From positions 5,443-69,442 of the forward strand of contig CANMBF010000001.1 of assembly GCA_947496065.1 (NCBI GenBank): a stretch of 64,000 bases of DNA, given 5' to 3'. The notes beneath the pieces were generated by a model that saw only the letters and a list, made by a program, of their open reading frames with translations, did not search any database and was not told the origin of the DNA. This document shows, one piece after another, positions 4,095-21,922 of the stretch. Source of the stretch: Bacteroidota bacterium (GTDB lineage Bacteria; Bacteroidota; Bacteroidia; NS11-12g; UBA955). The translations under genes and the position numbers were made by a program. How positions within the stretch are numbered: the stretch's first letter is position 1; each line of letters opens with the position of its first letter.

Positions 4095-4097
4095 CTG

Positions 4098-8301: not shown

Positions 8302-8302
8302 A

Positions 8303-9448: not shown

Positions 9449-9450
9449 TA

Positions 9451-10569
9451 TTGCAAGTATTGAAAACCCTATTCATATTTGGAACGCGACCAGAGGCTAT
9501 AAAACTAGCGCCCTTAATTCTTAAATATAAAAAGCATTATCCTGCCTCCACATTTGTTTGTGTTTCTGCTCAGCATCGCCAATTGCTCGATCAAGTTTTA
9601 AGTTTTTTTTCAATTCAACCCGATTTTGATTTGAACTTAATGAAGCCTAACCAAACATTGAGCGAATTAACCGCGAATATTATTACGGCCCTTACTCCAG
9701 TAATTAATGAAGTAAAACCAGATTGTGTTTTTGTACAAGGCGATACAACGACTGTTTTTGCTGGTGCACTTTGTGCATTTTACAATCAAACCAAGGTGGT
9801 GCATATCGAAGCAGGCTTGAGAAGTGGTAATAAGTATTCTCCATTCCCTGAAGAAATTAATCGAGAGCTTACTTCAAAGTTGAGCGACTTTCATTTCACA
9901 CCTACAGCCTTGGCTTCTGCAAATCTTGAAAAAGAAGGCATCACCAAAAATGTTTACCAAGTAGGCAATACTGTTATCGATGCGCTGATTATTGCAAAGG
10001 ACAAAGTGAACAATGAAGATGCTTTTTACAAAGCATTCTTTTCGAATATCGATTTTAGCAAAAAAATTATTCTAGTGACTTGTCATAGAAGAGAAAGTTT
10101 TGGAGAAGGCATTCAAAATATCTTTGGCGCCATTCGCGAATTGGCATTAACGCACCCCAACGTGGCATTTATCTACCCTGTTCACCCTAATCCGAATGTT
10201 AAAATTGAAGCCGAAAAACAATTATCAGATATTAAAAATGTGCACTTAATTGCCCCTTTAGATTATCCGTATTTGGTGTGGCTATTAACGCGCGTTAACA
10301 TTGTGCTTACCGATTCAGGCGGACTGCAAGAAGAGGCGCCAACCTTTGGCAAACCAGTACTTGTGTTAAGAGAAGTTACAGAACGTGTTGAAGGCATTGA
10401 CGCTGGAACCGCTAAATTGGTTGGAAATAATAAAGCAACCATCATCCATGAAGTCAATTTATTGCTGACGGATGAAAGTAAATACACAGCAATGGCCAAT
10501 GCTATTAATCCTTATGGCGATGGGTTGACTTCACAACGCATATTTGAAATTTTAGAAAAACTGATTTAA
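9451..10569 (+). CDS. wecB: UDP-N-acetylglucosamine 2-epimerase, non-hydrolysing
   Basis: 372 aa with a TTG start. Conserved WecB blocks are present: FGTRPEAIKLAPL, VQGDTTT, HIEAGLRS, and DSGGLQEEAP.FGKPVLVLR..TER.E. Confidence 0.85.
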   Translation: MQVLKTLFIFGTRPEAIKLAPLILKYKKHYPASTFVCVSAQHRQLLDQVLSFFSIQPDFDLNLMKPNQTLSELTANIITALTPVINEVKPDCVFVQGDTTTVFAGALCAFYNQTKVVHIEAGLRSGNKYSPFPEEINRELTSKLSDFHFTPTALASANLEKEGITKNVYQVGNTVIDALIIAKDKVNNEDAFYKAFFSNIDFSKKIILVTCHRRESFGEGIQNIFGAIRELALTHPNVAFIYPVHPNPNVKIEAEKQLSDIKNVHLIAPLDYPYLVWLLTRVNIVLTDSGGLQEEAPTFGKPVLVLREVTERVEGIDAGTAKLVGNNKATIIHEVNLLLTDESKYTAMANAINPYGDGLTSQRIFEILEKLI

Positions 10570-11282
10570 TGGAACAAGAAGAAATTTGGAAAAAACATAC
10601 CATGGGCTTAAAGCCTGAGGATTTATTTAAGAGAATTCAAAATCCTGCACAATTTCAAATTGAGTTAAATGCAATGTTAAGTCAATTAATTACTGAAAAT
10701 GGCTATAAAAGTGCCATTGAAGTTGGCTGTGAAGCGGGTACTTCAAGCGCTATGTTAGACAAATCAATAGAAGTTACCTTATTAGATTTAAATGACGACA
10801 TCATTAAATTAGATCAAGAGGCTTATGCAACTACCTATCCTAATTTTAAATACTGTGTAGCCGATATGTTTGCCATGCCTTTTGAAGATGAAAGTTTTGA
10901 TTTGGTATTCAATGCAGGAGTAATTGAACACTTTGATTTTGATGATAGAGCGCGTGCCATCAAAGAATATTGGCGAGTGCTAAAAAAGGGAGGAACCATG
11001 GTAATTGCTTTTCCTAATCATTATTCATTGCCTTATCGATTTGCTTATTTAGTAAGAACCATTACTAAAAAATGGATTTTTCCACCCGAAAATAAAATGT
11101 ACAACCTTAAAAAAGAATTACAAGCGAGTGGCATTGATGGTTTACAAAGAACTGTTTTAAGTAAAGCCAGTATTTTCAATTGGAATAGCTATTCTCCTTT
11201 GGTAAATAATTGCTTTAAGGCCCTTGACAAGGTATTTAACTTTGAAGGTTATTTAACTGCTATTTGGGTTAAAAAAAATTAA
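10569..11282 (+). CDS. Class I SAM-dependent methyltransferase
   Basis: 237 aa. It has EVGCEAGTSS (motif I), LLDLNDD, and FDLVFNAGVIEHF (Methyltransf_11-like). Confidence 0.65.
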   Translation: MEQEEIWKKHTMGLKPEDLFKRIQNPAQFQIELNAMLSQLITENGYKSAIEVGCEAGTSSAMLDKSIEVTLLDLNDDIIKLDQEAYATTYPNFKYCVADMFAMPFEDESFDLVFNAGVIEHFDFDDRARAIKEYWRVLKKGGTMVIAFPNHYSLPYRFAYLVRTITKKWIFPPENKMYNLKKELQASGIDGLQRTVLSKASIFNWNSYSPLVNNCFKALDKVFNFEGYLTAIWVKKN

Positions 11283-11293
11283 TTTCTAATCTA

Positions 11294-11989
11294 CTATCTT
11301 AAAAATAGAAGATTGCACTTCAAACCAATATTTGAAATGTTGGTTTTAAATTGAGCTGCGTTAGCATTCAATATTGTAAATTGAAAAGTCGGTTCAACCC
11401 TTATGGCATAGGTAACATCCATATCAAATTCGAGTCCATATGCCAACGAAAAAGAAGGTTTATAAACCTTATAATCTGAAGAGACATTGTAGACATTTTT
11501 GGTCAATGGGGCATTATTATATTCTATCGTTTGATAAAGCAATTGCTTTGTTGGTAGCGCTAAATTGAGTGCAAAAGAAGGTAAGTGTCTTCCATATTTA
11601 CTTCTTATAGGCACTGCTAATTTTAAAGGCAGCATGATAGAATAAAACTTATATTCATTTGAAACTTTGTTCACATTGTTTTTGCTTTCAACAGTTGTAG
11701 AATAAGCATATCCTTCACTCATATAATTCAACCCAGTCTCAAAAAAATACGTTTTCATTCTAAAGCTCGCCACGCCACCAAGCGAAAATCCAGCAACTGG
11801 TTTTTTATTGAATATAATGCCTACTAGTTTTGGATTTGCTGAACTTGAATAAACACCTAAACTAATTCCATACGCAAATGGGGTTTGATTGGGGTCTGCA
11901 GTTTGGGCATTGCATTTTAAATATACCATTAGATATAAAATAAATAGGCCATAGGTAAAAGGTATTTCATTTAAATGTGCTTTAAACAA
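11294..11989 (-). CDS. Putative outer-membrane beta-barrel (porin-family) protein
   Basis: 231 aa. It has a signal-peptide-like N-terminus ending ...KCNAQ and alternating hydrophobic beta-strand patterning. It is the only minus-strand gene inside the locus. Confidence 0.5.
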   Translation of the reverse strand: MFKAHLNEIPFTYGLFILYLMVYLKCNAQTADPNQTPFAYGISLGVYSSSANPKLVGIIFNKKPVAGFSLGGVASFRMKTYFFETGLNYMSEGYAYSTTVESKNNVNKVSNEYKFYSIMLPLKLAVPIRSKYGRHLPSFALNLALPTKQLLYQTIEYNNAPLTKNVYNVSSDYKVYKPSFSLAYGLEFDMDVTYAIRVEPTFQFTILNANAAQFKTNISNIGLKCNLLFLR

Positions 11990-11998
11990 ATGTAGAAA

Positions 11999-12006
11999 TA
12001 ATTTTG
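11999..12006 (+). promoter_or_regulatory. Bacteroidota -7 promoter box TAATTTTG upstream of the MBOAT gene
   Basis: Exact TAnnTTTG match, 53 nt upstream of ATG 12060, in a divergent intergenic region. Confidence 0.5.
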
Positions 12007-12059
12007 ATTAATTCGATAGTTTCGCAAAGTCGTTTAATAAAACGCGCCAATAAACCTTT

Positions 12060-13472
12060 ATGCTTTTTAACTCCATACCATTCCTTGCATTTATTTTGCT
12101 ATTCTTTGGTATATGGCCTTTGGTAAAACATAAGAACACCCTCAAATGGCTTTGGATTTGCTGCATGTCAGCTGTATTTTATGGTTGGTGGGATTGGCGT
12201 TTTCTCTTCTTATTATTTTCCACTGGAGCAATCGATTATTGGGCAGGTAAATTCATACTTCAATTTCCTTCTAAAAAGAAATTTTGGCTTTGGCTATCCT
12301 TAACTACCAATATAGGATCCTTGGTAATTTTCAAATATAGCACCTGGCTTGCAACTGCGATTGATAGTGGCTTTGCATACTGTAATGTGCATACTGAATT
12401 TAAAAATGCCATACCTGAATTTACCCTTGTCTTACCAGTAGGCATCAGCTTTTATACATTTAACTCTATGAGTTATACCATCGATTTATACCGCGGTAAA
12501 TCAAAGCCAGCTGAAAATATTCTGCATTTCTTTGCATTCATTTCTTTCTTCCCACATTTGGTGGCAGGACCAATAATCAGAGCCAAAGACATCCTTCAAC
12601 AATTAACAAAACCTATACATACCAATGCTGTTCAAATTTTTCATGGCATTAAAATATGCATTTGGGGCCTCTTTCAAAAAATGGTCTTGGCAGACAATAT
12701 TGCTGTTTTGGTAAACGATCAATTTAGCAGCGTTAGCGAACACTCTGATTCTGCACAGTGGTGGATTTGCATGGTTGCCTTTGCATTTCAAATTTACTTT
12801 GATTTTAATGGTTATAGCACAATCGCAAGGGGCATTGCAAAATTATGTGGCATCCACTTCCGACTTAATTTCAATCACCCTTATTTTGCAAATTCATTTC
12901 AAAATTTCTGGCAACGTTGGCATATTTCGCTCTCGAGTTTTTTCCGCGATTATGTTTACATTTCTCTGGGTGGCAATAGAAAAGGTAAATTTAGAACACA
13001 TATTAATTTATGGACAACCATGTTGCTCTCTGGTTTATGGCATGGCGCCAATATTACGTTTGTTATTTGGGGCGCCTTGCACGCTTTCTATTTAACAATA
13101 GAACGTTTGTTTTATAAGACAACTTTCAAAGTTTCAAATAAACCCGTTCAATTCTTACTTCGTTTTCTGTTCGTTTTTATACCCGTGCTAGTCGCTTGGA
13201 CCTTCTTTCGATCCAAAGATTGGAATGAGGCTATAACTATTATTCGCTGCTTATTTAGCTTTAATTTACACTTAGGGCTCAAGGAACTATTAATTAGCAA
13301 TGCCATTTTCTGGCTTGTTGTTGGTGTGTTAACTGAGTTATTTTTATTCTATAAATTAAAATTAACAAGAAGCAATTCCCCAATATTGCAAGCGGTAATG
13401 TTGAGTTTATTAATCTCCATTATTGTCTTTTTTAGAGGACCCGAACAGCAATTTATTTATTTTCAATTCTAA
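12060..13472 (+). CDS. MBOAT-family membrane O-acyltransferase (AlgI/DltB-like)
   Basis: 470 aa and polytopic. It has WWDWRF, FFPHLVAGPI, FW.RWHISLS.F.RDY.Y..LGG, and the conserved His in LSGLWHGA. Confidence 0.85.
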   Translation: MLFNSIPFLAFILLFFGIWPLVKHKNTLKWLWICCMSAVFYGWWDWRFLFLLFSTGAIDYWAGKFILQFPSKKKFWLWLSLTTNIGSLVIFKYSTWLATAIDSGFAYCNVHTEFKNAIPEFTLVLPVGISFYTFNSMSYTIDLYRGKSKPAENILHFFAFISFFPHLVAGPIIRAKDILQQLTKPIHTNAVQIFHGIKICIWGLFQKMVLADNIAVLVNDQFSSVSEHSDSAQWWICMVAFAFQIYFDFNGYSTIARGIAKLCGIHFRLNFNHPYFANSFQNFWQRWHISLSSFFRDYVYISLGGNRKGKFRTHINLWTTMLLSGLWHGANITFVIWGALHAFYLTIERLFYKTTFKVSNKPVQFLLRFLFVFIPVLVAWTFFRSKDWNEAITIIRCLFSFNLHLGLKELLISNAIFWLVVGVLTELFLFYKLKLTRSNSPILQAVMLSLLISIIVFFRGPEQQFIYFQF

Positions 13473-14384
13473 TTGTACATGACTGAAAATAAAAAAATAA
13501 AAAATAGTCGGTGGGCAATTGTTCTATCAATAACACTTACCCCTGTTATGTTGTATTTAATGGGTCTGTGTTTGCCGAAATTACCTTATTCGCAAATGTC
13601 CATGGATGCATTTTGGGCAAAAAAAATAGCAAACCCAAAGAAGTATGACATCATATTTATTGGTGACTCTCGCATTTACAGGGGCATCAATCCTTCTATC
13701 GTTTCGGAAATGACAAATGCAAGTGTTTTGAACTATGGCTTTAGCGCTGCTGGTTTAGATTCAATTATTATTTATGAAGCCATTAAACAACTTGATACCA
13801 AAGGGAAAAAAATGGTTGTGTTTGGTATATCACCAAGTGCCTTCACCAATGAGGCCATAAAGAATGAACATTTTCATTCACTCAAAAAAATAAACAACAA
13901 AGATTTATGGATTCGTAAAAACATTTATCCTAAATTAACCTATTTCGATGCTTATAGTCTAGCTGAAATTAAAAAACATCTGAACAAAGAAGCCTATTCG
14001 CAGATCTGCAGAGCAGATGGTTTTATAGAAAGTAATAAGTCACCCGCAGATAGTAATGCTGCAATCAGCGCCTATGAAGATTATTTTAAGCACAATATGA
14101 TAAGCGATTTGCAACAACAAAAGTTTATTGCTTTGCTACAAATTCTGCAAACCAAAGGCATCAAATGTTATGCATTCAGAGTTCCAACGGCACTACCAAT
14201 GACTGTTTTGGAAAATAGTGTCTTTGACAAACAGCACTTAAAATTAAAAATCAATCAAACCGGAGCACATTGGTTTTTTATACCTCAAAATGGCTTTAAA
14301 AGTTATGATGGTAGCCATCTCAACGGAGCATCTGCAAATAAACTTTCACAAATCGTGGGAGATTCAATTCTAATTTATCACTAA
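13473..14384 (+). CDS. SGNH/AlgJ-DltD-like partner protein of the MBOAT acyltransferase
   Basis: 303 aa with one N-terminal TM segment. The FIGDSRIY (GDS) block resembles SGNH acyl-transfer proteins. It lies immediately downstream of the MBOAT gene. The start could be TTG 13473 or ATG 13479. Confidence 0.55.
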   Translation: MYMTENKKIKNSRWAIVLSITLTPVMLYLMGLCLPKLPYSQMSMDAFWAKKIANPKKYDIIFIGDSRIYRGINPSIVSEMTNASVLNYGFSAAGLDSIIIYEAIKQLDTKGKKMVVFGISPSAFTNEAIKNEHFHSLKKINNKDLWIRKNIYPKLTYFDAYSLAEIKKHLNKEAYSQICRADGFIESNKSPADSNAAISAYEDYFKHNMISDLQQQKFIALLQILQTKGIKCYAFRVPTALPMTVLENSVFDKQHLKLKINQTGAHWFFIPQNGFKSYDGSHLNGASANKLSQIVGDSILIYH

Positions 14385-14395
14385 TTTCGCAAGCA

Positions 14396-15580
14396 ATGAA
14401 AGTCGTATTTCTATTTGGAGGGCTCCCACATTATCTTAATAAAGTATTAAATAAAATTAATGCTGAGTCGGATATTGAAGTGGTGGTAATTGTGCCAGAA
14501 GGAAACAGCTTAACCTTTGGAAGTGGTGTTCATCAAAGCGAAGTCGGCATTGATTTTAAAGTGATTCGTTTGGTTGAATCCAGTGCATGGTATGGCAAAC
14601 CGTTTTTCAAAAATTTTTATAAAACGATTGCATCTGAAAAACCAGATGTTATCGTTACCGGATGGCCTTATTTTTTAGCTTATATGCTCATGCCCTTGCT
14701 ACTTTTAAGACTAAAAATAAAGGGTATTAAGCTATATGCTAGAGAAATTCCATTTACGGTTCCAGCCTATAATGAAACCTTTGAGGCATTTGAAAAGCGT
14801 TGTGTTGACGGCCAAAAAAATGAATTAATTTTTAAAAATGGATTGGCTTTCTGGTTATTAAAACTGATGAGAAAATACCTTTACACTGTAGTTTTTGATA
14901 AAGCGCTGCTTTATACCGAACAAGGTATAGATATCATTTACTCCTATGGCCTAGCAAAAGAAAATATTACGGTTACTTACAATTCTCCTGATACAGATGA
15001 AATTTTTGAAACGATTAAGGAGATTAAATTAAAACACCCTCATTTAACTAGTAAGCCACACCGATTACTACATATCGGTCGCTTAGTAAAATGGAAAAAC
15101 ATTGATCTTCTCATAAAAGCAGTACAAGTTCTAAAACCCAAATACCCTAATATTGAGCTAGCAATTATTGGTAAAGGTGAGGAGGAAGTAAACTTAAAAA
15201 CGCTTGTAAACACCTTGAATCTTACTGATAATATTTCGTTTTTAGGGGCTATTTATGAGGGAGAAGGTCAAACCATTGAGTTTTTAAAGTCTGGTGTATA
15301 TGTATTAGCGGGTATGGGAGGACTTTCAATTAATGAAGCCATGGCGCATAGTTTACCTATCATATGTTCGGTGGCCGATGGAACAGAAAAGCATTTGGTT
15401 TTTGAGGATAAAAATGGCTTTTATTTTAAAGATAGCAATCTTGAAAGTTTAGTGGATGCCATTGATAAAATGTTTACCTCAGATACTATTGAAATGGGGG
15501 CTAGGTCAAAAGCCATTATAGAACAAAAAATAAATCTGCCATTTGTAAGCTCGCAATTTATTGGCGCTTTGAGAAGTTAG
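14396..15580 (+). CDS. Glycosyltransferase family 4 (GT-B)
   Basis: 394 aa. It has LLHIGRLVKWKN, GKGEEE, and GGLSINEAMA...P.I......G..E......NG (E-x7-E-like). Confidence 0.7.
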   Translation: MKVVFLFGGLPHYLNKVLNKINAESDIEVVVIVPEGNSLTFGSGVHQSEVGIDFKVIRLVESSAWYGKPFFKNFYKTIASEKPDVIVTGWPYFLAYMLMPLLLLRLKIKGIKLYAREIPFTVPAYNETFEAFEKRCVDGQKNELIFKNGLAFWLLKLMRKYLYTVVFDKALLYTEQGIDIIYSYGLAKENITVTYNSPDTDEIFETIKEIKLKHPHLTSKPHRLLHIGRLVKWKNIDLLIKAVQVLKPKYPNIELAIIGKGEEEVNLKTLVNTLNLTDNISFLGAIYEGEGQTIEFLKSGVYVLAGMGGLSINEAMAHSLPIICSVADGTEKHLVFEDKNGFYFKDSNLESLVDAIDKMFTSDTIEMGARSKAIIEQKINLPFVSSQFIGALRS

Positions 15581-15641: not shown

Positions 15642-15905
15642 CTATCTTTTGATAAATTTAGCAGATGTTAAGCTGCCATCATTGTTTAATATATTTAGAA
15701 AATAAATGCCTTTTACTAATTGTCTGATATCAAATTGTACATTAGACCCATTGATATTTGAAGTTGTTGTTAAAGTTACTGCTTTGCCATTGGCATCCAT
15801 AATGCTAATCGCTGATTCAACTTCTACTGTTTCGGTGAAACTTATATTTAAATAATCTGAAGTTGGGTTAGGGTATACACTTACTGTGCTGATAACATTG
15901 TTCAA
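15642..15905 (-). CDS. Orphan T9SS type-A C-terminal sorting domain ORF (CTD only; an expressed mini-protein or a gene remnant)
   Basis: 87 aa: VYPNPTSDYLNISF...ISIMDANGK......GIYFLNI....GSLTSAKFIKR is a complete Por/T9SS CTD. There is no signal peptide or cargo domain. The frame is closed by TGA immediately upstream, and the only available start is TTG. Confidence 0.45.
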   Translation of the reverse strand: MNNVISTVSVYPNPTSDYLNISFTETVEVESAISIMDANGKAVTLTTTSNINGSNVQFDIRQLVKGIYFLNILNNDGSLTSAKFIKR

Positions 15906-15959
15906 TCATATTTATTTTAGTTTTTAATCTTAAAGCTGTTTTAATTCTTAAAGACGGCA

Positions 15960-15967
15960 CAAATATA
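15960..15967 (-). promoter_or_regulatory. -7 promoter box TATATTTG upstream of the orphan CTD ORF
   Basis: Exact TAnnTTTG on the minus strand, 54 nt upstream of TTG 15905. Confidence 0.45.
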
Positions 15968-15969
15968 AG

Positions 15970-15987
15970 ATAGTACTTTTATACTAT
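15970..15987. promoter_or_regulatory. Palindromic operator candidate, ATAGTA-cttta..-TACTAT (TAGTA-N6-TACTA), copy C
   Basis: TAGTA (15971-15975), a 6-nt spacer, TACTA (15982-15986). The half-sites and spacing match the copies at 19173 and 19364. It abuts the -7 box at 15960-15967. Confidence 0.5.
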
Positions 15988-16232
15988 GTTCATAAACTAA
16001 GTATAAAACGGTAAAATATTTTGCAAAACGCTGTTTTACACTGTAATAATTTTTTATGGCACTAAGTACTTTTACACAATTAAAGAAATATATTTATAAT
16101 TTAGTATGAAATACTTTAAGGTTTTTAGCTCAAAAAGCGAATTTAAAAAAATTAAAAAATTACTAGCTAACTAAAAATTAATTGAGATTGAAATGAAATT
16201 TTTGACCCTAAAATTCCAAATTCAGTCGGCAT

Positions 16233-16264
16233 AAAAAAACCCCATTTGAAAAAACAAATGGGGT
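16233..16264 (-). terminator. Rho-independent terminator of the AOS-fusion/small-ORF transcription unit
   Basis: The minus strand reads CCCCATTTG-tttttt-CAAATGGGG followed by TTTTTTT. This is a 9-bp GC-containing stem in otherwise AT-rich DNA, 33 nt after the small ORF stop. Confidence 0.75.
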
Positions 16265-16296
16265 TCAAAATTTAAAATATGGTTAAGTTGTATTGC

Positions 16297-16548
16297 TTAT
16301 ATTTCTTTGTCTAAATCAAAATTTCTACAATAGAAATTAGCAACATAAGTAAGGGTTAATGGTTTGACATCTAAAGTATTACCCATATTATCAACCAGCA
16401 CCTCAACGAAATAATTGTAAATAGAATAAAGTTCTAATTTGAATCCTTTGGTAAGTTTTACTTCGCATACAAATAGCGATTTGTTGCTCAAGATTTGCAA
16501 CCTTGAGTTGTTGTTAAAAGTGTTTAATTCGAGTTGTGTAATCAGCAT
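16297..16548 (-). CDS. Small hypothetical protein co-transcribed with the AOS fusion (83 aa from ATG 16548; 104 aa if TTG 16611 is used)
   Basis: The ORF lies between the fusion-gene stop (16633) and the terminator. I recognise no family. The longer form adds a hydrophobic VIILLLLLW segment. Confidence 0.4.
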   Translation of the reverse strand: MLITQLELNTFNNNSRLQILSNKSLFVCEVKLTKGFKLELYSIYNYFVEVLVDNMGNTLDVKPLTLTYVANFYCRNFDLDKEI

Positions 16549-16632
16549 TATTTTAGTTTTGGATAGTTTTAAATTCCATAACAAAAGTAAAAGAATAATT
16601 ACTTTAAACAAAAATATTTTTAAATTTTACAA

Positions 16633-19098
16633 CTAATTGACAGCGTTTTCGCCCTCATAAACATTAACACTTTGATTACTTGATATTTGCATAGATTCTA
16701 TTACAGCTGCATTAAAGTGATCGTTGGCTTGCATGTAAGCAACAGTTTTATAAGCATCAGCACCCATTCTACGCTTTTCTAATGAAGCAGTAAATCCAAG
16801 ATTTATTGAAGTGCATTTTAAATAGTTGGCTCTCAAAATTACTTGATATAGTGCCTGACGGTAAACATTTATTTCAAATTGTTCAGATTTATCGACGCCA
16901 ATGAAAATAGCATTGTACACATCGCCTGATTTGTAATTGAACACAACGGCTACTTCTTTTAGTTCATCCTTGGCTTCGCCAGTTTTTAGCTTAACAGATA
17001 AAACTTCCCAATTGGGTGAATTGGCTATATTTTCAAATAAGTTAATGGGTAAATCAAACGTATTCAGTTTAAAACTGCTCCCTTTAATTTGGTTATAAAG
17101 TTTAAACCAATGCTTAATTTGTTGATCTGTAGGATTTTTAACAACCTCACATTCTATTAAATTGACGTGTTTTAAAACTTGACCTCTAAAATGCTTTCTT
17201 GCTTTGTGGGTCAAAGAAGCGATAAATTCAGTTTCATTGGTCCAAGTTAATTCCTGGTGCACATTTCTCTCTGGCATTTGGGTTTTAAAATAGCCATTAC
17301 CTAACATCGCTTTATCTAATTCTGTATTGCCATCATCAAAATCTCTCAACATAATAGAACCCGCATTGTATTTTTTCATTAAGGCAGAGGCCATCCAATA
17401 CAATTCGTTAAACGCTTGTTTTTTATATTCACTTTTTTCATTGATATAGACATGTCCACCTTCTGTTAGCAATGAACCGGTCATTACCATTAAAGAAGTT
17501 AGATAATAGGGATCGCTTGTTTTTCTTATTATTTCAATTTTATGAGAAATGGTTTCATGAGAAAGCATGTCATCTTTGCACAAAGCAGTTGTAAAGAAAG
17601 TTGCTAGCACAACTCTTTGGCTTTTGTCCTTTACTATGAGATAGTCAAATTCCCAATTGTTTTCAATCAAACTATTGTTTTTAAATGTTTTTTCAAGAAA
17701 TAACAAGCCTTCATAGTCAAAACTACCTTTTCCTTGAAAAATCGCATTCCACTCTTCCTTCTTGATTTCGGAAATGGATTGGTACTTTTCTAGAATTAAA
17801 TTAGATGGCTTAATAATTGGCTGGAAGGTGTCTTCTGTATTCGTTTCGCCTGGATTATCAATCTTAAATGCTTTATATATTTGGTCTCTAGAAATATTTT
17901 GTTCAAGTAAAACCTCATCAAAATGTCTAGCCATGGAGGTGATCATACCTTCAATTTGTTTAAATGTGTGCAATCTAGTAATGGTAAATCTCACACCTGT
18001 ATTTTTCATTGGCACTGCTGGAAAAGCACCAAGATTTGTGTAATAACCATCATCTAGCATTCTTTTGATTAATTGGTAACCTACCTTTGGTAAACAAACA
18101 CCAATAAAGAATACGGGTGAGTTTAATTCCTTAATAAGCGGTAAGCCAGCCTTCTTAATCATTAGGTTGGCAAACTTGATATTTTCTTGCAAGTCTTCTT
18201 GCATTTTTATTATTTCATCGGATAAATGTATATCAGCTGCTGCTAATGCTGCTCCTAATGCTGCAGGCTGCATAGGTCCAGAAGTAATCATTGGACCGCC
18301 GCAAGTTCTTACTAGGCTTGCCATTTCTTCATTAGGAAAAATCATAGCACCACCACCACTTGCAAAGGCTTTGTTCAAACTTGTAGTCAAAACCATTCTT
18401 TCGTGCAAATCATGATTTTGAAGTACAAATCCTCTTCCATTCTTGCCGAAACTACTCATGCCATGCGCATCGTCAACATAAAAGTTAAACTTAGGGTATT
18501 TATCTAATAAGTCATATATGGCATCAATAGGCGCGCCATCACCATACATTGAATAAATACCATCTGCCATATACCAAACCTTTTCGTACTTCTTGCTAAG
18601 TTGGATAATTCTATCTTCTAATAAGTCCATTCTATTATGTCTCAGTAATTCGATGAGAATTCCTTTTGGCTTTAGAAGTGTTGTCGCTGTTTGAATAGAA
18701 CTGTGTACCTGGTGGTCTAGAACTACAGCATCTTTTTCTCCTATTATAACAGGTAATGTAGAGATGTGCCCCAACGTTGTCGTAGGAGTAACTACACAAT
18801 AACCTCCAAATAACTGGTTTAACTTAGATTCAAGTTGTTGATAATGTATGGAGGATAAATAAGCCCTTGAAGCTGAAAATTGTGTTCCGTAACCTTCCAA
18901 AGCTTTAATAGCGCCAGCCTTTAAACGCGGGTCAAATTCTAAACCAAGATAACTACAAGAGCTAAAATTGACTAGTTCTTTGTCGTTGATTTTTAGCATA
19001 TTACCTTCTAATATTTCATTAGAAACATTTAGATGTAAGATGCCACTGTTCTTTCCATCGGTAATCACGTCATTGATGGTTGTAAGAAAATTGTTCAT
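16633..19098 (-). CDS. Fusion protein: N-terminal PLP-dependent alpha-oxoamine synthase (BioF/Kbl/Spt/CqsA family) plus C-terminal FemAB/BioF2-like GNAT-fold acyltransferase domain
   Basis: 821 aa. The AOS part (about aa 40-400) has SCSYLGL, HSSIQ, YVDDAHGMSSFGKNGRG, and the PLP lysine in TTSLNKAFASGGG. The C-terminal ~380 aa (WN.IF......FDYEGL.FLE..., ...YRQALYQ.I..A......INLGFTA) resemble the DUF482/Acetyltransf_6 type. Confidence 0.8.
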   Translation of the reverse strand: MNNFLTTINDVITDGKNSGILHLNVSNEILEGNMLKINDKELVNFSSCSYLGLEFDPRLKAGAIKALEGYGTQFSASRAYLSSIHYQQLESKLNQLFGGYCVVTPTTTLGHISTLPVIIGEKDAVVLDHQVHSSIQTATTLLKPKGILIELLRHNRMDLLEDRIIQLSKKYEKVWYMADGIYSMYGDGAPIDAIYDLLDKYPKFNFYVDDAHGMSSFGKNGRGFVLQNHDLHERMVLTTSLNKAFASGGGAMIFPNEEMASLVRTCGGPMITSGPMQPAALGAALAAADIHLSDEIIKMQEDLQENIKFANLMIKKAGLPLIKELNSPVFFIGVCLPKVGYQLIKRMLDDGYYTNLGAFPAVPMKNTGVRFTITRLHTFKQIEGMITSMARHFDEVLLEQNISRDQIYKAFKIDNPGETNTEDTFQPIIKPSNLILEKYQSISEIKKEEWNAIFQGKGSFDYEGLLFLEKTFKNNSLIENNWEFDYLIVKDKSQRVVLATFFTTALCKDDMLSHETISHKIEIIRKTSDPYYLTSLMVMTGSLLTEGGHVYINEKSEYKKQAFNELYWMASALMKKYNAGSIMLRDFDDGNTELDKAMLGNGYFKTQMPERNVHQELTWTNETEFIASLTHKARKHFRGQVLKHVNLIECEVVKNPTDQQIKHWFKLYNQIKGSSFKLNTFDLPINLFENIANSPNWEVLSVKLKTGEAKDELKEVAVVFNYKSGDVYNAIFIGVDKSEQFEINVYRQALYQVILRANYLKCTSINLGFTASLEKRRMGADAYKTVAYMQANDHFNAAVIESMQISSNQSVNVYEGENAVN

Positions 19099-19124
19099 AA
19101 CTTATGGATAATTAATTATTGATA

Positions 19125-19132
19125 CAAAGATG
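19125..19132 (-). promoter_or_regulatory. Near-consensus -7 box (CATCTTTG) for the AOS-fusion gene
   Basis: 7/8 match to TAnnTTTG, 26 nt upstream of ATG 19098. Confidence 0.3.
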
Positions 19133-19171
19133 AGGGATTAAAATCATTAATCAAACAGTTTTCAACATTTT

Positions 19172-19189
19172 TTAGTATTTTTTTACTAG
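19172..19189. promoter_or_regulatory. Palindromic operator candidate TAGTA-tttttt-TACTA, copy A
   Basis: TAGTA (19173-19177), N6, TACTA (19184-19188). It lies 75-90 bp upstream of the fusion-gene ATG, roughly at -45 to -65 relative to the putative promoter. Confidence 0.5.
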
Positions 19190-19362
19190 GTCTATGTGTT
19201 TTTTTATCTAAGAATATGAAAATAAACAAATTACATATTTAAAAAAAAATTATAATTATAATTGCCTGTTTTCAAATGCTTTAATTTAATTTTTTTAGCA
19301 TTTTTACACTTTTTAACCCCTATATTTAACTATTTATAGCTTGTATTATTATCACTATTTAT

Positions 19363-19380
19363 CTAGTATTATAATACTAG
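19363..19380. promoter_or_regulatory. Perfect 18-bp palindrome CTAGTATTATAATACTAG (TAGTA-N6-TACTA), copy B
   Basis: Self-complementary over all 18 nt. It sits in the centre of the ~510-bp divergent intergenic region and can be read as a 7-2-7 inverted repeat. Confidence 0.55.
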
Positions 19381-19579
19381 TTTTTTTACATGTATTTTTA
19401 CTATAATTCTATTAATCATGTTTTTATAGTTATTTTATAAAAATTATAATTTTCATATAAAGACATCAAATTGCAAACCGGCCAAATTTGTTAATAAGAT
19501 GTTATTGGATTTAATGATGTGTTATTTTGAAAAAATCGTCGGGCAATTTGAAAAACAACAATAAAATTCATTTTATTCC

Positions 19580-19587
19580 TATATTTG
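19580..19587 (+). promoter_or_regulatory. -7 promoter box TATATTTG for the STAS/kinase/regulator operon
   Basis: Exact TAnnTTTG, 23 nt upstream of ATG 19611. This position argues against the longer track ORF start at 19527. Confidence 0.55.
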
Positions 19588-19610
19588 CATCTAATACAGC
19601 AAATATTAAA

Positions 19611-19997
19611 ATGACCAAAGCAATGGAAATTTATGAAAATCAACAAATTAAGATGGAAATTATAGATGGCATCATCCATGCCCACTACAAAGCAGGTCTT
19701 AAAATTACTTTACCAGATGCCAAAACAATCGTTGCAGAGCGATTGAATTTACTAAAAGCCAGAGTACTTCCTGGTCTTGTTTTGGATGGTGGTGTTGTAA
19801 GCATGGATAAAGCAGCCCGCGACTATTTTTCATCTCCAGAGGGAATTCAAGGTTTAAAATCAGTTGCCATTGTTGAAAATTCTTTCTTTAGCAAAATGTT
19901 AATTAACTTTTTCATGCGCATTACCAATGCCTCTATTAAAGTGAAAGCTTTTAGCAATGAGGCAGAAGCTTTGGAGTGGTTAAAAAAAGATGCTTAA
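19611..19997 (+). CDS. STAS/SpoIIAA-like small protein
   Basis: 128 aa from ATG 19611. The C-terminal pattern ...KSVAIVENSFFSKM..NFF.....A.IKVKAF.NE.EALEWL is typical of SpoIIAA-like/STAS proteins, which often precede sensor kinases in Bacteroidota. Confidence 0.55.
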   Translation: MTKAMEIYENQQIKMEIIDGIIHAHYKAGLKITLPDAKTIVAERLNLLKARVLPGLVLDGGVVSMDKAARDYFSSPEGIQGLKSVAIVENSFFSKMLINFFMRITNASIKVKAFSNEAEALEWLKKDA

Positions 19998-20043: not shown

Positions 20044-21201
20044 TTGAAAGATATTAATAATTTTGACTTGGACGAGCGCTTCATGCAGCTCGAAGATGTA
20101 CTACTAGCCTATTCACATGGAGATTTTTCAAAAAAACTCTCTATTTCTGATAGGTTAGATCCCATAGATACTGTGATGTCTGGAATAAACATGCTTGGAG
20201 AGGAACTTGAAGAGACAACTATAAAAAGGGACTTTTTTAACTCGGCGTTTCACTCTATTACAGATAGTTTAGTGGTGATTAATAATTCGGGTATTATTAT
20301 AGATTTAAACGAAAGTTTCATTTGTCTGCTTGAATTACAGAAAGAGGATATTATTGGCAAGAATTTAACAAGTTTTTTAAAGTTTAAAAGTTTTGAGAAG
20401 ACCATTCAATCCTTATATAAGAATCAAAAAACAATCGATTTCGAATCCGAAATTCAAACTTCGCAAGATAAAAAAATAATGGTTGAATGCCATGTTTCTG
20501 TGATTGATAATAACAAATGCCATTCTTTGGTAAAAATTCACGATTTAACCTATAAAATTCAACAGGAAGCATCAAGAATTGCCACCATTATTAAAACACA
20601 GGAAGAGGAAAGAAATCGAGTTGCCTCAGATTTACATGATAGCATTGGACAGCAAATATCTGCTTTAAAATTTTATTTTGATTCTATTCAAAAGCAAAAA
20701 GATGATAAGCTGAGAACAGTGCTTTTGAAAAAGACTGAATCTTTGATTGATAACGTGGCAGATGAAATCAGAAATATTTGCTTCCAATTAATGCCAAGAT
20801 CTGTTGAAAAATTTGGATTATCCGATTCTATTAAACAATTGGCCGACATCATTCAATTTAGTACTGGTATTCAATTTGATTTGAAATTACAAGAGTCAAA
20901 AATAAAAATTGACTCCAATGTTTCGATGTCTGTTTACAGAATTATACAAGAGTTTGTAAATAACTCTATTAAGCATGCCAAATGCAAGAATATAAAGGTT
21001 AATTTTGAGGTCAAACCAAAAGTATTAACGCTAATAATGATCGACGATGGTGTTGGTTTTGGAGAATCTACAAGTAAAAGAAAAGGCAATGGATTAGACA
21101 ACATTAACTTGCGGGTCAAATACCTAAATGGAGAAGTTGAATTCATTTCAGAAAAAGATAAGGGCGTTATATTGAATATTAGCATACCTTTGAACTTATA
21201 A
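20044..21201 (+). CDS. Cytoplasmic sensor histidine kinase (PAS + HisKA_3 + HATPase_c, NarX/DegS class)
   Basis: 385 aa with a TTG start and no TM segments. It has a PAS-like block (FHSITDSLVVINNSGIIIDLNESF...IGKN), the H-box EERNRVASDLHDSIGQQ, the N-box IIQEFVNNSIKHA, and the G-box DDGVGF...GNGL.N. Confidence 0.8.
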   Translation: MKDINNFDLDERFMQLEDVLLAYSHGDFSKKLSISDRLDPIDTVMSGINMLGEELEETTIKRDFFNSAFHSITDSLVVINNSGIIIDLNESFICLLELQKEDIIGKNLTSFLKFKSFEKTIQSLYKNQKTIDFESEIQTSQDKKIMVECHVSVIDNNKCHSLVKIHDLTYKIQQEASRIATIIKTQEEERNRVASDLHDSIGQQISALKFYFDSIQKQKDDKLRTVLLKKTESLIDNVADEIRNICFQLMPRSVEKFGLSDSIKQLADIIQFSTGIQFDLKLQESKIKIDSNVSMSVYRIIQEFVNNSIKHAKCKNIKVNFEVKPKVLTLIMIDDGVGFGESTSKRKGNGLDNINLRVKYLNGEVEFISEKDKGVILNISIPLNL

Positions 21202-21205
21202 CATT

Positions 21206-21922
21206 ATGCAAAAACTAGTAAAAATATTGATTGTAGATGACCATCCAATGATTAGAGATGGTTTAAAAACCATGCTTGAGATAGGATGTGAAGACATGGT
21301 TTTCAAAGTATTTGATTGCGATAATACTGAAGAAGCTGTTGAGTATCTAAAAAATGAAAAAATGAAAGTCGCTTTAGTTGATTATCAGTTAATTGATCTT
21401 GATGGTGCCTTAGTTACTTCAGCGCTAATGGAAGTGAACCCCAAAATTAACATTTTAGGCATTTCAAATTATAATGAAATAAACCACATTCATGATATGT
21501 TAAAGGCCGGAGCAAAAGGTTATACGTTAAAAAATATTTCTTCAGAAAACCTTTTTAACGGTATAAAAATCTTATTGAATGGCGGAACATTCTTCTCTCC
21601 AGAGGTAGCGCATCTGCTAGCCAATCAGTACTATAAAAAATTAACTGAAAAATCAGGTAAAAAGAAAGGCCCTAACTTCATTAGCAATTCTGAACAAACT
21701 GATGGCAACGAGCTTTTAGATAGACTTTCAAAAAGAGAAATAGAAATTTTAACATGCATTGCAAACGAAATGACGAATGAGGAAATTGCGGTAAAACTTG
21801 AATTAAGCAAAAGAACAGTCGACAACCACCGTCAAAACATGTTGAATAAACTTAAAGTAAAAAACTCTATGGGGTTACTACTTATAGCAATGAAAGCTGG
21901 TTTATTGGAATACAAAAAGTAG
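21206..21922 (+). CDS. NarL/FixJ(LuxR)-family response regulator
   Basis: 238 aa. The REC domain has ILIVDDHPMIRDGL, ..LVDYQL.DLDG, and KAGAKGY. A long basic linker follows, then the GerE HTH LSKREIEILTCIANEMTNEEIA..L.LS.RTVDNHRQN...KL. Confidence 0.85.
   Translation: MQKLVKILIVDDHPMIRDGLKTMLEIGCEDMVFKVFDCDNTEEAVEYLKNEKMKVALVDYQLIDLDGALVTSALMEVNPKINILGISNYNEINHIHDMLKAGAKGYTLKNISSENLFNGIKILLNGGTFFSPEVAHLLANQYYKKLTEKSGKKKGPNFISNSEQTDGNELLDRLSKREIEILTCIANEMTNEEIAVKLELSKRTVDNHRQNMLNKLKVKNSMGLLLIAMKAGLLEYKK

What the first reader, a model, noticed from the sequence alone, without database searches (positions are those of the whole stretch)
16633..19098. 821-aa single-polypeptide fusion of an alpha-oxoamine synthase with a FemAB/BioF2-like acyltransferase-fold domain
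What the sequence shows: the N-terminal ~400 aa carry the diagnostic AOS motifs (YVDDAHGMSSFGKNGRG and the PLP-lysine block TTSLNKAFASGGG). They are joined by a short linker (..IDNPGETNTEDTFQP..) to a second ~380-aa domain that resembles the DUF482/Acetyltransf_6 double-GNAT fold. Established knowledge: AOS enzymes (BioF, Kbl, Spt, CqsA/LqsA, and the cysteate-fatty-acyl transferase of sulfonolipid synthesis) condense an amino acid with an acyl-thioester. As I recall it, M. tuberculosis BioF2 (Rv0032) combines the same two domain types in the opposite order and has no assigned function. Bacterial ceramide synthesis uses a separate GNAT-type N-acyltransferase acting directly on the Spt product. 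Inference: one polypeptide could perform the condensation and then N-acylate the resulting alpha-aminoketone. The product would be a ceramide-, sulfobacin- or signal-like N-acyl aminoketone. The substrate cannot be read from the sequence.
Basis: partly seen in the sequence, partly recalled or inferred. Interest (0 to 1): 0.7.

Follow-up and report, generated by a model that had tools for sequence, protein, structure and literature searches.

The report
Aminoketone synthase–acyltransferase fusion with own sensor
This is a real, widespread but uncharacterised two-domain Bacteroidota enzyme, predicted to build an amino-ketone and then cap its amino group, and it always sits beside its own cytoplasmic sensor kinase, regulator and DNA operator, which points to a regulated signal or specialised lipid rather than biotin or ordinary sphingolipid synthesis.

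Summary
Window 16633-19098 on the minus strand is one 821-aa ORF. Residues ~14-400 are an alpha-oxoamine synthase (AOS) with an intact PLP site. A disordered linker (419-431) follows, then a ~375-aa tandem-GNAT domain. Orthologues of that domain match Pfam FemAB_like and Acetyltransf_6; the window copy itself does not.

It is not an artefact. Eighty genomes carry full-length copies, and split and larger fused versions exist. It is not BioF, Kbl, Spt, SulA or CqsA, because every NCBIfam equivalog cut-off is missed. The C-half is not homologous to bacterial ceramide synthase (tested against E. coli BL21 YghO).

The new result is a conserved five-gene module. The fusion and an 83-aa unknown protein are transcribed divergently from DUF7793 (STAS-like), a cytoplasmic PAS-HisKA_3 kinase and a LuxR-type regulator. 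This holds in 71-73 of 74 loci. A 7-2-7 palindrome lies in the shared promoter region.

Best reading: the AOS condenses an amino acid with a fatty acyl-thioester. The second domain then N-acylates the aminoketone. The product is made under, and possibly sensed by, the adjacent two-component system. The acyl donor (acyl-ACP/CoA or aminoacyl-tRNA) and the product's role are unresolved.

The parts
16633..19098 (-). Fusion gene, 821 aa: AOS domain, linker, FemAB-like tandem-GNAT domain
   Evidence: ORF and translation. The best 120 listed homologues are nearly all full-length. AF2 pLDDT 87.3, pTM 0.77.
17899..19059 (-). Alpha-oxoamine synthase domain (aa ~14-400). PLP-lysine K243 is the codon at 18370-18372. 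Catalytic residues are H132, D209/D210, H212 and R370.
   Evidence: PF00155. NF005697 PRK07505 at 256.6 bits over aa 14-391. Alignment to S. multivorum SPT 3a2b and Alb29 places K243 on the PLP lysine. These residues are invariant in 71 homologues. Foldseek TM about 0.86 to Kbl, Alb29, SPT and BioF.
17806..17844 (-). Disordered inter-domain linker (aa 419-431, within ..IDNPGETNTEDTFQPIIKP..)
   Evidence: pLDDT below 50 only here and at the C-terminus. This is the least conserved segment: 34% mean pairwise identity, against 66% for the N-half and 49% for the C-half.
16678..17796 (-). FemAB_like / Acetyltransf_6 tandem-GNAT domain (aa ~435-807)
   Evidence: Orthologues hit PF13480 (16 of 20) and PF04339 (4 of 20). 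AF2 pLDDT 87.1. Foldseek finds Sba18/Sbb17, FemX, MprF, VipF and other tandem GNATs. 29 polar or aromatic positions are at least 97% conserved, including K508, D510, H549, R585, E774 and K775.
16297..16548 (-). Conserved 83-aa protein of unknown family, 84 nt downstream of the fusion and probably co-transcribed
   Evidence: The family was found directly downstream in at least 43 of 68 loci, with shared motif E[FY]xxF...[FY][FYH]VE...EP[VI]. No Pfam or PDB match.
16237..16266 (-). Intrinsic terminator-like hairpin (12 pairs plus a T-run) that ends the two-gene operon
19363..19380 (.). Perfect 18-bp palindrome CTAGTATTATAATACTAG (7-2-7: TAGTATT-AT-AATACTA) in the divergent promoter region; putative operator of the LuxR-type regulator
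   Evidence: Single exact match in the window; 0.02 expected. The same 7-2-7 element lies about 280 nt upstream in close relatives. The family-wide version TAGGTAT-NN-ATACCTA occurs with 3 or fewer mismatches in 38 of 78 intergenic regions, against 2.8 expected by shuffling. It is about 180-fold enriched over the rest of the loci and sits mostly 114-154 nt upstream of the fusion ATG.
19173..19188 (.). Second, degenerate operator-like site TAGTATTTTTTTACTA, 75-90 nt upstream of the fusion start codon
   Evidence: four matches in the window with 2 or fewer mismatches, against 1.08 expected; none of 100 shuffles reached four.
19611..19997 (+). DUF7793 (SpoIIAA/STAS-like) protein, first gene of the divergent sensor operon. 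The ORF is callable from 19527; the likely ATG is at 19611.
   Evidence: PF25056 E 4.5e-31. Present divergently upstream in 71 of 74 loci. In the reverse test, 4 of 4 DUF7793 genes lie next to an 808-824-aa fusion.
20044..21201 (+). Cytoplasmic sensor histidine kinase (PAS, HisKA_3, HATPase_c; no transmembrane segment)
   Evidence: Pfam. Present in 73 of 74 loci. Maximum 19-residue hydropathy 1.28.
21206..21922 (+). Response regulator with a GerE/LuxR (NarL-type) DNA-binding domain
   Evidence: Pfam. Present in 72 of 74 loci.

Best explanation
The gene encodes a soluble bifunctional synthase. Step 1 is inferred from family chemistry and an intact active site. The PLP-dependent AOS domain condenses an amino acid with an acyl-thioester, most likely a fatty acyl-ACP or acyl-CoA, with loss of CO2. 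This gives a reactive alpha-aminoketone. Step 2 is inferred from the fusion, the split gene pairs and the fold. The C-terminal FemAB-like tandem-GNAT domain acylates the free amine, which stabilises the molecule as an N-acyl alpha-aminoketone (a keto-ceramide-like small lipid). The substrates cannot be read from sequence. The conserved gene order and the operator element are shown directly. The gene forms an operon with an 83-aa unknown protein. It is transcribed divergently from a DUF7793 (STAS-like) protein, a cytoplasmic PAS histidine kinase and a LuxR/NarL-type regulator. A conserved 7-2-7 palindrome sits in the shared control region. The inference is that the regulator binds this palindrome and controls the synthase operon. 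My favoured version is that the product, or its precursor pool, is the ligand sensed by DUF7793 or the PAS kinase. That would make the module a synthase-receptor circuit analogous to CqsA/CqsS or LqsA/LqsS.
For: AOS catalytic set. H132, D209/D210, H212, K243 and R370 are invariant in 71 homologues. They align with the catalytic residues of SPT 3a2b and Alb29. Fold match has TM about 0.86.

C-half. It has a tandem-GNAT fold. Orthologues match PF04339 and PF13480. It is strongly conserved, with 49% mean pairwise identity and 29 near-invariant polar or aromatic residues, so it is probably catalytic.

Functional coupling of the halves. The fusion occurs in 80 genomes. Separate adjacent AOS and FemAB-like genes occur in a Pseudomonadota MAG and another contig. 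A FAAL-ACP-ACP-AOS-FemAB-like protein occurs in Ca. Kentron. This last architecture points to fatty acyl-ACP as the donor. It parallels the FAAL / ACP / Spt / N-acyltransferase logic of the E. coli BL21 sphingolipid cluster (PMC9386255).

Regulatory coupling. DUF7793, the kinase and the regulator lie divergently adjacent in 71, 73 and 72 of 74 loci, even where the neighbours share only 30-45% identity. The reverse test gave 4 of 4. The palindrome is found in 38 of 78 intergenic regions against 2.8 expected, at a fixed distance. The window has a perfect copy plus a second site. All five proteins lack transmembrane segments.
Against: No activity was measured. The acyl donor of the C-half is unknown. 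Its best structural neighbours include aminoacyl-tRNA-dependent enzymes at E-values equal to those of acetyl-CoA tandem GNATs. TM-scores for the C-half are only 0.45-0.7. The window's own C-half does not reach Pfam significance. There is no reductase, carrier protein, ligase or exporter in the Bacteroidota module. Adjacency to a two-component system shows co-regulation, not that the product is the ligand. Regulator binding to the palindrome is inferred only from the 7-2-7 geometry typical of NarL/LuxR dimers (my own knowledge). The palindrome is recognisable in only about half of the loci with the single consensus I used.
Confidence: 0.55

Rival explanations
1. The first step is the same, but the C-half is a Fem-type aminoacyl-tRNA-dependent transferase. 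It would add an amino acid to the aminoketone. The resulting N-aminoacyl-aminoketone cyclises and oxidises spontaneously to a substituted pyrazinone. The enzyme would then be a dedicated pyrazinone autoinducer synthase paired with its receptor system.
For: The top Foldseek hits of the C-half are aminoacyl-tRNA-dependent enzymes: Sba18/Sbb17 (E 4e-10), FemX and MprF/L-PGS. The Pfam family is named FemAB_like. I did not see the Q/RxxGxG/A pyrophosphate-binding motif typical of CoA-using GNATs when reading the sequence (motif from my own knowledge). The chemistry has precedent: aminoacetone plus activated alanine gives N-alanyl-aminoacetone and then DPO, for which no dedicated synthase is known (PMC12930378). 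The module needs no donor-supplying genes, which fits aa-tRNA from primary metabolism. There is also tight linkage to a sensor system.
Against: Acetyl-CoA tandem GNATs (VipF, MAB_4324, the clavulanate ORF, NMT) score almost as well. The C-half is acidic, with median pI 5.9 and net charge -6, which is weak evidence against a tRNA-binding surface. The Kentron relative carries a FAAL and two ACPs, so the family handles fatty acyl chains, and a second ACP could deliver the N-acyl group. There is no sequence-level similarity to any solved Fem or MprF protein.
Confidence: 0.2
2. The enzyme makes a specialised envelope lipid, a sphingolipid-, ceramide- or sulfonolipid-like N-acyl long-chain base. The adjacent two-component system only switches its synthesis on in response to an unrelated cue. 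The product is structural and is not sensed.
For: The AOS half is about equally related to bacterial Spt and to Kbl (27% identity to BL21 Spt; 163 bits on the Bacteroidota Spt model). The FAAL-ACP-ACP fusion parallels sphingolipid clusters. Bacterial CerS acts directly on the Spt product (PMC10865984, PMC9304779). Dedicated two-component systems beside envelope-lipid modification genes are common (my own knowledge).
Against: The protein misses the Bacteroidota Spt equivalog by a wide margin (163 against 640). It scores lower against SulA/CapB structures (57-64 bits) than against Alb29 (123 bits). The C-half is unrelated in sequence to bCerS/YghO. The module has no reductase, flippase or head-group enzyme. 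The sensor is entirely cytoplasmic with a STAS-like partner that is found only with this enzyme in the cases examined. That fits sensing of an intracellular small molecule better than envelope stress.
Confidence: 0.17
3. The C-half does not act on the AOS product. It would be a regulatory, oligomerisation or substrate-loading domain, or would acylate a different acceptor such as the 83-aa protein or a cell-wall precursor.
For: No catalytic residue assignment is possible. TM-scores to known enzymes are modest. The window copy falls below Pfam thresholds. A conserved small protein of unknown role is co-transcribed.
Against: Conservation is high, with many invariant polar residues. The AOS + FemAB-like pair recurs as a fusion, as a split pair and inside a larger megasynthase across phyla. 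That is the classic signature of consecutive steps.
Confidence: 0.06
4. It is a housekeeping BioF, Kbl or Spt with an accessory domain, or a frameshift-merged pair of genes.
For: Public annotations call it '7-keto-8-aminopelargonate synthetase-like enzyme'.
Against: All equivalog cut-offs are missed: BioF 150 against 426, Kbl 137 against 460, Spt 163 against 640, CqsA 75 against 428. The single ORF is conserved in 80 genomes and many metagenomes. By analogy, M. tuberculosis BioF2 does not complement bioF (PMC12910592).
Confidence: 0.02

Closest known systems
M. tuberculosis BioF2 (Rv0032) and the Pfam PF13480 'BioF2-like' acetyltransferase domain
   Same: Both combine an AOS domain with a FemAB-like/GNAT-type N-acyltransferase-superfamily domain in one polypeptide. 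Neither has an assigned function, and Rv0032 is not a functional BioF (PMC12910592, PMC6923341).
   Different: The domain order is reversed; Rv0032 has the extra domain at the N-terminus. From my own recollection, Rv0032 lies beside an ACP and a FadD ligase and not beside a two-component system. I could not compare sequences here.
Bacterial ceramide pathway: Spt + bCerS (Caulobacter CC_1162/CC_1154; E. coli BL21 spt/yghO)
   Same: The logic is the same: an AOS makes a long-chain aminoketone, which an N-acyltransferase acylates directly. The Kentron relative even adds a FAAL and ACPs, like the BL21 cluster.
   Different: There is no homology between the C-half and YghO/bCerS (hhalign probability 0.06%). 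The AOS half is far below the Spt equivalog cut-offs. No CerR-type reductase is present in the module. The two activities are fused and are linked to a cytoplasmic sensor system.
CqsA/CqsS (Vibrio) and LqsA/LqsS/LqsR (Legionella) alpha-hydroxyketone signalling
   Same: An AOS-family synthase is encoded next to a dedicated sensor kinase and response regulator.
   Different: The AOS scores only 75 bits against a cut-off of 428 on the CqsA/LqsA model. It carries an extra acyltransferase domain. The kinase is a soluble PAS-HisKA_3 protein with a STAS-like partner and not a membrane receptor. The output is a LuxR/NarL-type regulator with a 7-2-7 operator.
Fem-type aminoacyl-tRNA-dependent transferases (FemX, Sba18/Sbb17, MprF synthase domain), and DhpH of dehydrophos biosynthesis (PLP domain fused to a Fem-like domain; from my own knowledge)
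   Same: They share the tandem-GNAT fold and are the best structural matches. DhpH gives a precedent for a PLP enzyme fused to an amine-acylating Fem-like domain.
   Different: There is no sequence-level similarity to any solved member. tRNA dependence is untested. The PLP domain here is an AOS, not a beta-eliminating enzyme.
DPO / AI-3 pyrazinone autoinducers
   Same: The proposed chemistry in the rival model is an aminoketone plus an activated amino acid, giving an N-aminoacyl-aminoketone and then a pyrazinone (PMC12930378).
   Different: In Vibrio no dedicated synthase exists, and the coupling step is spontaneous after adenylate release. Here a dedicated two-domain enzyme would perform both steps. 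No product is known.

Membership tests
Alpha-oxoamine synthase (PLP fold-type I; BioF/Kbl/Spt/ALAS/CqsA superfamily) | Aminotran_1_2 fold and HMM match | tested here: met
   PF00155 at aa 41-373, E 1e-18. Foldseek TM about 0.86 to Kbl, Alb29, SPT and BioF.
Alpha-oxoamine synthase (PLP fold-type I; BioF/Kbl/Spt/ALAS/CqsA superfamily) | PLP-binding lysine, stacking His, Asp-x-x-His and carboxylate-binding Arg in register with solved AOS enzymes | tested here: met
   K243, H132, D209/D210, H212 and R370 align to SPT 3a2b and Alb29. They are invariant in 71 homologues.
Alpha-oxoamine synthase (PLP fold-type I; BioF/Kbl/Spt/ALAS/CqsA superfamily) | Decarboxylative Claisen condensation activity | not testable with these tools
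   Requires an enzyme assay.
Canonical BioF / Kbl / Spt (CFB, alpha, beta) / ALAS / CqsA-LqsA equivalogs | Score at or above the NCBIfam curated cut-off | tested here: not met
   BioF 150 against 426; Kbl 137.5 against 460; Spt-CFB 162.7 against 640; ALAS 90.6 against 338; CqsA-type 75.5 against 428. The best model is NF005697 PRK07505 'hypothetical protein', 256.6 against 342.
SulA/CapB cysteate-fatty-acyl transferase | Closest sequence relationship to solved SulA/CapB | tested here: not met
   7u7h scores 64 bits and 28eh 57 bits, against 123 bits for Alb29 and 111 bits for SPT. The SulA-specific Lys281 was not examined.
FemAB_like (PF04339, DUF482) / Acetyltransf_6 (PF13480) | HMM match by the window protein itself | tested here: not met
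   No hit at E of 0.1 or below for aa 421-821.
FemAB_like (PF04339, DUF482) / Acetyltransf_6 (PF13480) | HMM match by orthologues aligned over the same region | tested here: met
   16 of 20 hit PF13480 (best E 2.8e-8) and 4 of 20 hit PF04339. P0076: PF04339 at aa 445-807, 29.6 bits against a gathering score of 27; PF13480 at 30.4 bits against 22.
FemAB_like (PF04339, DUF482) / Acetyltransf_6 (PF13480) | Tandem (double) GNAT fold | tested here: met
   AF2 pLDDT 87. Foldseek finds FemX, Sba18/Sbb17, MprF, VipF, MAB_4324 and NMT at probability 1.00.
Fem-type aminoacyl-tRNA-dependent transferases | Use of aminoacyl-tRNA as the acyl donor | not testable with these tools
   Structural neighbours are mixed between aa-tRNA and acyl-CoA users. 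The acidic pI of 5.9 is weak counter-evidence.
Bacterial ceramide synthase bCerS (CC_1154 / YghO) | Sequence or profile homology to a bCerS orthologue | tested here: not met
   C-half profile against E. coli BL21 YghO: hhalign probability 0.06%, E 0.74. YghO has no Pfam or NCBIfam hit. The orthology of YghO to CC_1154 is taken from PMC9386255.
Bacterial ceramide synthase bCerS (CC_1154 / YghO) | Genomic association with Spt, ACP, FAAL and a CerR reductase | tested here: not met
   None of these is in the window module or in related loci. Only the Kentron relative fuses a FAAL and ACPs.
CqsA/CqsS- or LqsA/LqsS-type autoinducer system | Synthase encoded next to a cognate sensor kinase and regulator | tested here: met
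   71-73 of 74 loci. The reverse test gave 4 of 4. The kinase type differs: it is soluble PAS-HisKA_3.
CqsA/CqsS- or LqsA/LqsS-type autoinducer system | The product is released and sensed by the adjacent kinase | not testable with these tools
   Requires chemistry and genetics.
M. tuberculosis BioF2 (Rv0032) architecture | Same two domain families, in reversed order | not tested
The literature reports an extra N-terminal domain and an N-acyltransferase superfamily region (PMC12910592, PMC6923341).

The most novel reading that the evidence does not exclude
The five-gene module is a self-contained chemical signalling circuit native to Bacteroidota (Chitinophagaceae, Crocinitomicaceae and relatives). 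A two-domain synthase makes a new class of diffusible N-acyl- or N-aminoacyl-aminoketone; in the aminoacyl case this cyclises to a pyrazinone. The molecule is sensed inside the cell by the STAS-like DUF7793 protein and the PAS kinase. The signal feeds back through a LuxR-type regulator on a 7-2-7 operator. This would be the first dedicated synthase-receptor pair of its kind in the phylum. In the pyrazinone version it would be the first dedicated pyrazinone autoinducer synthase.
Probability: 0.3. Interest if true: 0.85.

Novelty: new variant of a known kind. Interest (0 to 1): 0.66.

Why it matters
AOS enzymes start the synthesis of biotin, haem, sphingolipids, sulfonolipids and the CAI-1/LAI-1 quorum signals. 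This family is a large branch: 351 clusters at 50% identity with E of 1e-30 or better, and up to 560 species-level genomes. No function is assigned to it. It adds a second, amine-capping domain. In Bacteroidota it is also locked to a private cytoplasmic two-component system and operator.

If the product is a signal, this is a new chemical language in an abundant environmental phylum that has no well-defined quorum-sensing systems. If it is a lipid, it is a non-homologous, fused counterpart of the Spt + bCerS route. Either outcome would also suggest a testable function for the long-unexplained M. tuberculosis BioF2.

The module is directly testable in cultured strains: Crocinitomix catalasitica ATCC 23190, Ferruginibacter paludis CECT 8366, Flavihumibacter petaseus NBRC 106054 and Ginsengibacter hankyongi BR5-29.

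Tried and rejected
- Direct Pfam and NCBIfam scans of the window's C-half gave nothing. The family link came only through orthologues.
- A profile of 20 C-halves against all PDB sequences gave 0 hits at E of 10 or below.
- Foldseek on the full-length model returned only AOS hits, so the C-half was modelled separately.
- A search of 1.84 billion representatives with the C-half profile was meant to reveal distant named relatives. The top 150 were all the same family or fragments of it. It did yield the Kentron FAAL-ACP-ACP fusion and the stand-alone versions.
- The bCerS hypothesis was tested by fetching E. coli BL21 yghO. No similarity was found.
- No paralogue of either half lies in the 64-kb window. 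Whether the genome has a separate bioF, kbl or spt cannot be told from the window.
- The small downstream protein has no Pfam or PDB relative.
- No Rfam family or riboswitch lies in 15900-19700.
- A DUF7793 alignment was too variable for a metagenome locus scan.
- No DUF7793-kinase fusions were found.
- Literature searches for the fusion, DUF482/PF04339, Bacteroidota CqsA-like systems and AOS-pyrazinone links found no description of this module. The bCerS paper itself was not held.
- ClpP/ClpX and the polysaccharide cluster beside the module are syntenic only in close relatives and were dismissed as unrelated.

Full report
**Observation**

The interval 16633-19098 is a single open reading frame on the minus strand. 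It has an ATG start and encodes 821 codons. The quoted motifs are all present: YVDDAHGMSSFGKNGRG, TTSLNKAFASGGG and the linker IDNPGETNTEDTFQP.

Pfam finds Aminotran_1_2 at residues 41-373. NCBIfam aligns residues 14-391 end-to-end with the AOS-type model NF005697 (PRK07505, 'hypothetical protein') at 256.6 bits.

**N-terminal half**

The best sequence matches among solved structures are the L-glutamate-using AOS Alb29 (123 bits), Sphingobacterium SPT (111 bits) and Coxiella Kbl (107 bits). In these alignments K243 falls on the PLP lysine. H132, D209/D210-A-H212 and R370 fall on the other catalytic positions. All of these are invariant in 71 homologues. The AlphaFold2 model superposes on AOS crystal structures with TM about 0.86.

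The protein does not reach the curated cut-off of any functional equivalog:

| Model | Score (bits) | Cut-off (bits) |
|---|---|---|
| BioF | 150 | 426 |
| Kbl | 137 | 460 |
| Bacteroidota Spt | 163 | 640 |
| ALAS | 91 | 338 |
| CqsA/LqsA type | 75 | 428 |

It scores lower against SulA/CapB structures than against Alb29 or SPT. It is therefore an AOS of a separate clade. AOS partners of the same C-terminal family in other architectures also score best on PRK07505, at about 235-250 bits.

**C-terminal half**

The window's own sequence has no significant Pfam or NCBIfam hit. A profile of 20 orthologous C-halves finds nothing among PDB sequences.

The orthologues themselves do match. Sixteen of 20 hit PF13480 (Acetyltransf_6) and 4 of 20 hit PF04339 (FemAB_like, formerly DUF482). 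In P0076 the FemAB_like model covers residues 445-807, profile positions 1-350 of 369, above the gathering score.

A separate AlphaFold2 model of residues 421-821 is confident (pLDDT 87). Foldseek places it among tandem-GNAT enzymes:
- Aminoacyl-tRNA-dependent synthases Sba18/Sbb17 (E 4e-10).
- FemX.
- MprF/L-PGS synthase domains.
- Interleaved with these, the acetyl-CoA-using tandem GNATs VipF, MAB_4324, the clavulanate-pathway protein and N-myristoyltransferase.

The donor type cannot be decided from fold alone.

The domain is well conserved, with 49% mean pairwise identity against 66% for the AOS half and 34% for the linker. It has 29 near-invariant polar or aromatic positions. That argues for catalysis and against a passive appendage.

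**The fusion is real and ancient**

- The best 120 database hits listed are nearly all about 810-830 aa at 50-87% identity.
- A scan of one genome per species returned 80 full-length loci out of at least 560 candidates. They come from Chitinophagaceae, Crocinitomicaceae and other Bacteroidota, including cultured strains.
- A profile search of 1.84 billion representatives found 351 clusters at E of 1e-30 or better. Among the top 150, 79 are full-length fusions and most of the rest are fragments.
- The two halves also occur as adjacent separate genes: a Pseudomonadota MAG with 424 + 359 aa, and another contig with 374 + 378 aa.
- In Candidatus Kentron they occur inside a larger protein: fatty acyl-AMP ligase, ACP, ACP, AOS, FemAB-like.

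This recurrence as fusion, split pair and megasynthase indicates consecutive steps. The FAAL and ACP domains indicate that fatty acyl-ACP feeds the AOS in this family.

**Test of the ceramide analogy**

PMC9386255 identifies E. coli BL21 yghO as the orthologue of the Caulobacter N-acyltransferase CC_1154 (bCerS). I retrieved the BL21 cluster, which contains yghO, a FAAL, an epimerase/dehydratase-family protein, an ACP and spt.

YghO shows no similarity to the C-half profile (hhalign probability 0.06%, E 0.74). It has no Pfam or NCBIfam family. The AOS half is 27% identical to BL21 Spt, no closer than to other AOS enzymes.

The enzyme may therefore work like Spt + bCerS, but it is not a member of that system.

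**Genomic context: the main new finding**

In the window the fusion gene is followed after 84 nt by an 83-aa ORF (16297-16548) and then a strong terminator (16237-16266). It is preceded by about 0.5 kb of AT-rich DNA. Across that DNA lie three divergently transcribed genes:
- A DUF7793/SpoIIAA-like protein.
- A PAS-HisKA_3-HATPase kinase.
- A receiver-GerE (LuxR/NarL-type) regulator.

Of 74 related loci with enough upstream sequence, 71 have DUF7793, 73 the kinase and 72 the regulator in this divergent arrangement. This holds even where these neighbours are only 30-45% identical to the window's. More distant flanks (ClpP/ClpX, glycosyltransferases, MBOAT) are shared only by close relatives.

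The test also works in reverse. Four DUF7793 proteins taken from a DUF7793-profile search all sit next to an 808-824-aa fusion, a kinase and a regulator. The 83-aa protein belongs to a family found downstream of the fusion in at least 43 of 68 loci. It has no known relatives. None of the five proteins has a predicted membrane segment.

**Operator**

The divergent intergenic regions share a 7-2-7 inverted repeat with consensus TAGGTAT-NN-ATACCTA. It occurs with 3 or fewer mismatches in 38 of 78 regions, against 2.8 expected from shuffles (maximum 7). It is about 180-fold more frequent there than in the remaining 1.5 Mb of the loci. It lies at a nearly fixed 114-154 nt upstream of the fusion start codon.

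The window's clade uses the variant TAGTATT-NN-AATACTA. The window has a perfect 18-bp palindrome at 19363-19380 (0.02 expected) and a degenerate second site at 19173-19188.

The 7-2-7 geometry is that of NarL/LuxR-family dimers (my own knowledge). I infer that the adjacent regulator controls the synthase operon and probably its own operon. No riboswitch or other Rfam element is present.

**Mechanism**

Shown:
- An intact AOS active site.
- A conserved tandem-GNAT partner.
- Recurrent physical or genetic linkage of the two halves.
- Linkage to fatty-acyl activation in one relative.
- A conserved sensor and regulator set with an operator.

Inferred:
- The AOS makes a (fatty) alpha-aminoketone.
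- The second domain acylates its amine.
- The regulator binds the palindrome.

Unresolved:
- The amino acid substrate.
- The acyl chain.
- Whether the N-substituent comes from acyl-ACP/CoA or from aminoacyl-tRNA.
- Whether the product is the ligand of DUF7793 or the PAS kinase.

The aminoacyl-tRNA alternative is chemically attractive. An N-aminoacyl-aminoketone cyclises to a pyrazinone, as shown for the Vibrio autoinducer DPO, which lacks a dedicated synthase (PMC12930378). The acidic C-half (median pI 5.9) and the FAAL/ACP fusion lean slightly towards an acyl donor.

**Novelty and verdict**

The architecture is visible in databases. JGI annotates some members as '7-keto-8-aminopelargonate synthetase-like enzyme/predicted N-acyltransferase', and M. 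tuberculosis BioF2 is the reversed-order relative (PMC12910592, PMC6923341). I found no description of the family's function, of the five-gene module or of its operator.

I rate it a new variant of a known kind. It is an AOS-based synthase with a fused Fem-like amine-acylating domain and a private cytoplasmic two-component system. Interest is moderately high because it is widespread, uncharacterised and immediately testable in cultured strains.

Noticed in passing
window 15642-15905 (-) and 15971-15986: An 87-aa ORF consists of nothing but a type IX secretion C-terminal sorting domain (Por_Secre_tail, E 4e-18). It has no cargo domain or signal peptide and may be a remnant. An operator-like site (TAGTACTTTTATACTA, 2 mismatches to the window palindrome) lies about 70 nt upstream of it. 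In L001 a similar site lies upstream of a Por_Secre_tail protein downstream of the module. T9SS cargo may therefore belong to the regulon.
   Followed up: partly
L001 13535; L013 10368; L024 13015 and 13048; L032 5954: Additional near-consensus 7-2-7 sites lie in non-coding DNA a few kb from the module in several related loci. This hints at a small local regulon beyond the synthase operon.
   Followed up: partly
related loci L055, L056, L063-L065, L070, L071, L080, L081 (downstream of the fusion): In several Ferruginibacter and Chitinophagaceae loci, the first ORF called downstream of the fusion is a 114-127-aa protein that I judged by eye to be AraC-like, not a member of the small-protein family. 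L002 does carry a called HTH_18/AraC gene further downstream. I did not check whether the small protein lies further on in these loci.
   Followed up: no
loci L018-L021, L028, L031, L034, L040, L050, L059: In one group of loci the kinase is 468-516 aa instead of about 340-390 aa. It carries an extra N-terminal region that is probably a further PAS domain. DUF7793 stays a separate gene in these loci.
   Followed up: partly
window 1572-15580: A polysaccharide biosynthesis cluster lies here: nucleotidyl transferase, Wzx-like flippase, glycosyltransferases, UDP-GlcNAc 2-epimerase, methyltransferase, MBOAT O-acyltransferase and a GT1. It also holds two 447-aa and 461-aa proteins with no Pfam family (4098-5441, 5438-6823). 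It is syntenic with the module only in close relatives.
   Followed up: partly
window 34570-38943 (-): A 1457-aa predicted T9SS-secreted protein has three Calx-beta domains and a Por_Secre_tail sorting domain.
   Followed up: no
L077 (CAJCIQ010000126.1): One full-length fusion locus is labelled Beijerinckiaceae (Alphaproteobacteria). Its fusion is 46% identical to the window's, with the kinase and regulator adjacent as in the Bacteroidota loci, although no DUF7793 hit was found. It is probably a mis-binned contig and not lateral transfer.
   Followed up: no
L089/L090 (E. coli BL21(DE3) NC_012971 2989282-2994885): RefSeq annotates the BL21 sphingolipid-type cluster as yghO, fatty acyl-AMP ligase, epimerase/dehydratase, ACP and spt, followed by second copies of lptG and lptF. 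YghO (the bCerS orthologue according to PMC9386255) has no Pfam or NCBIfam family at all.
   Followed up: partly
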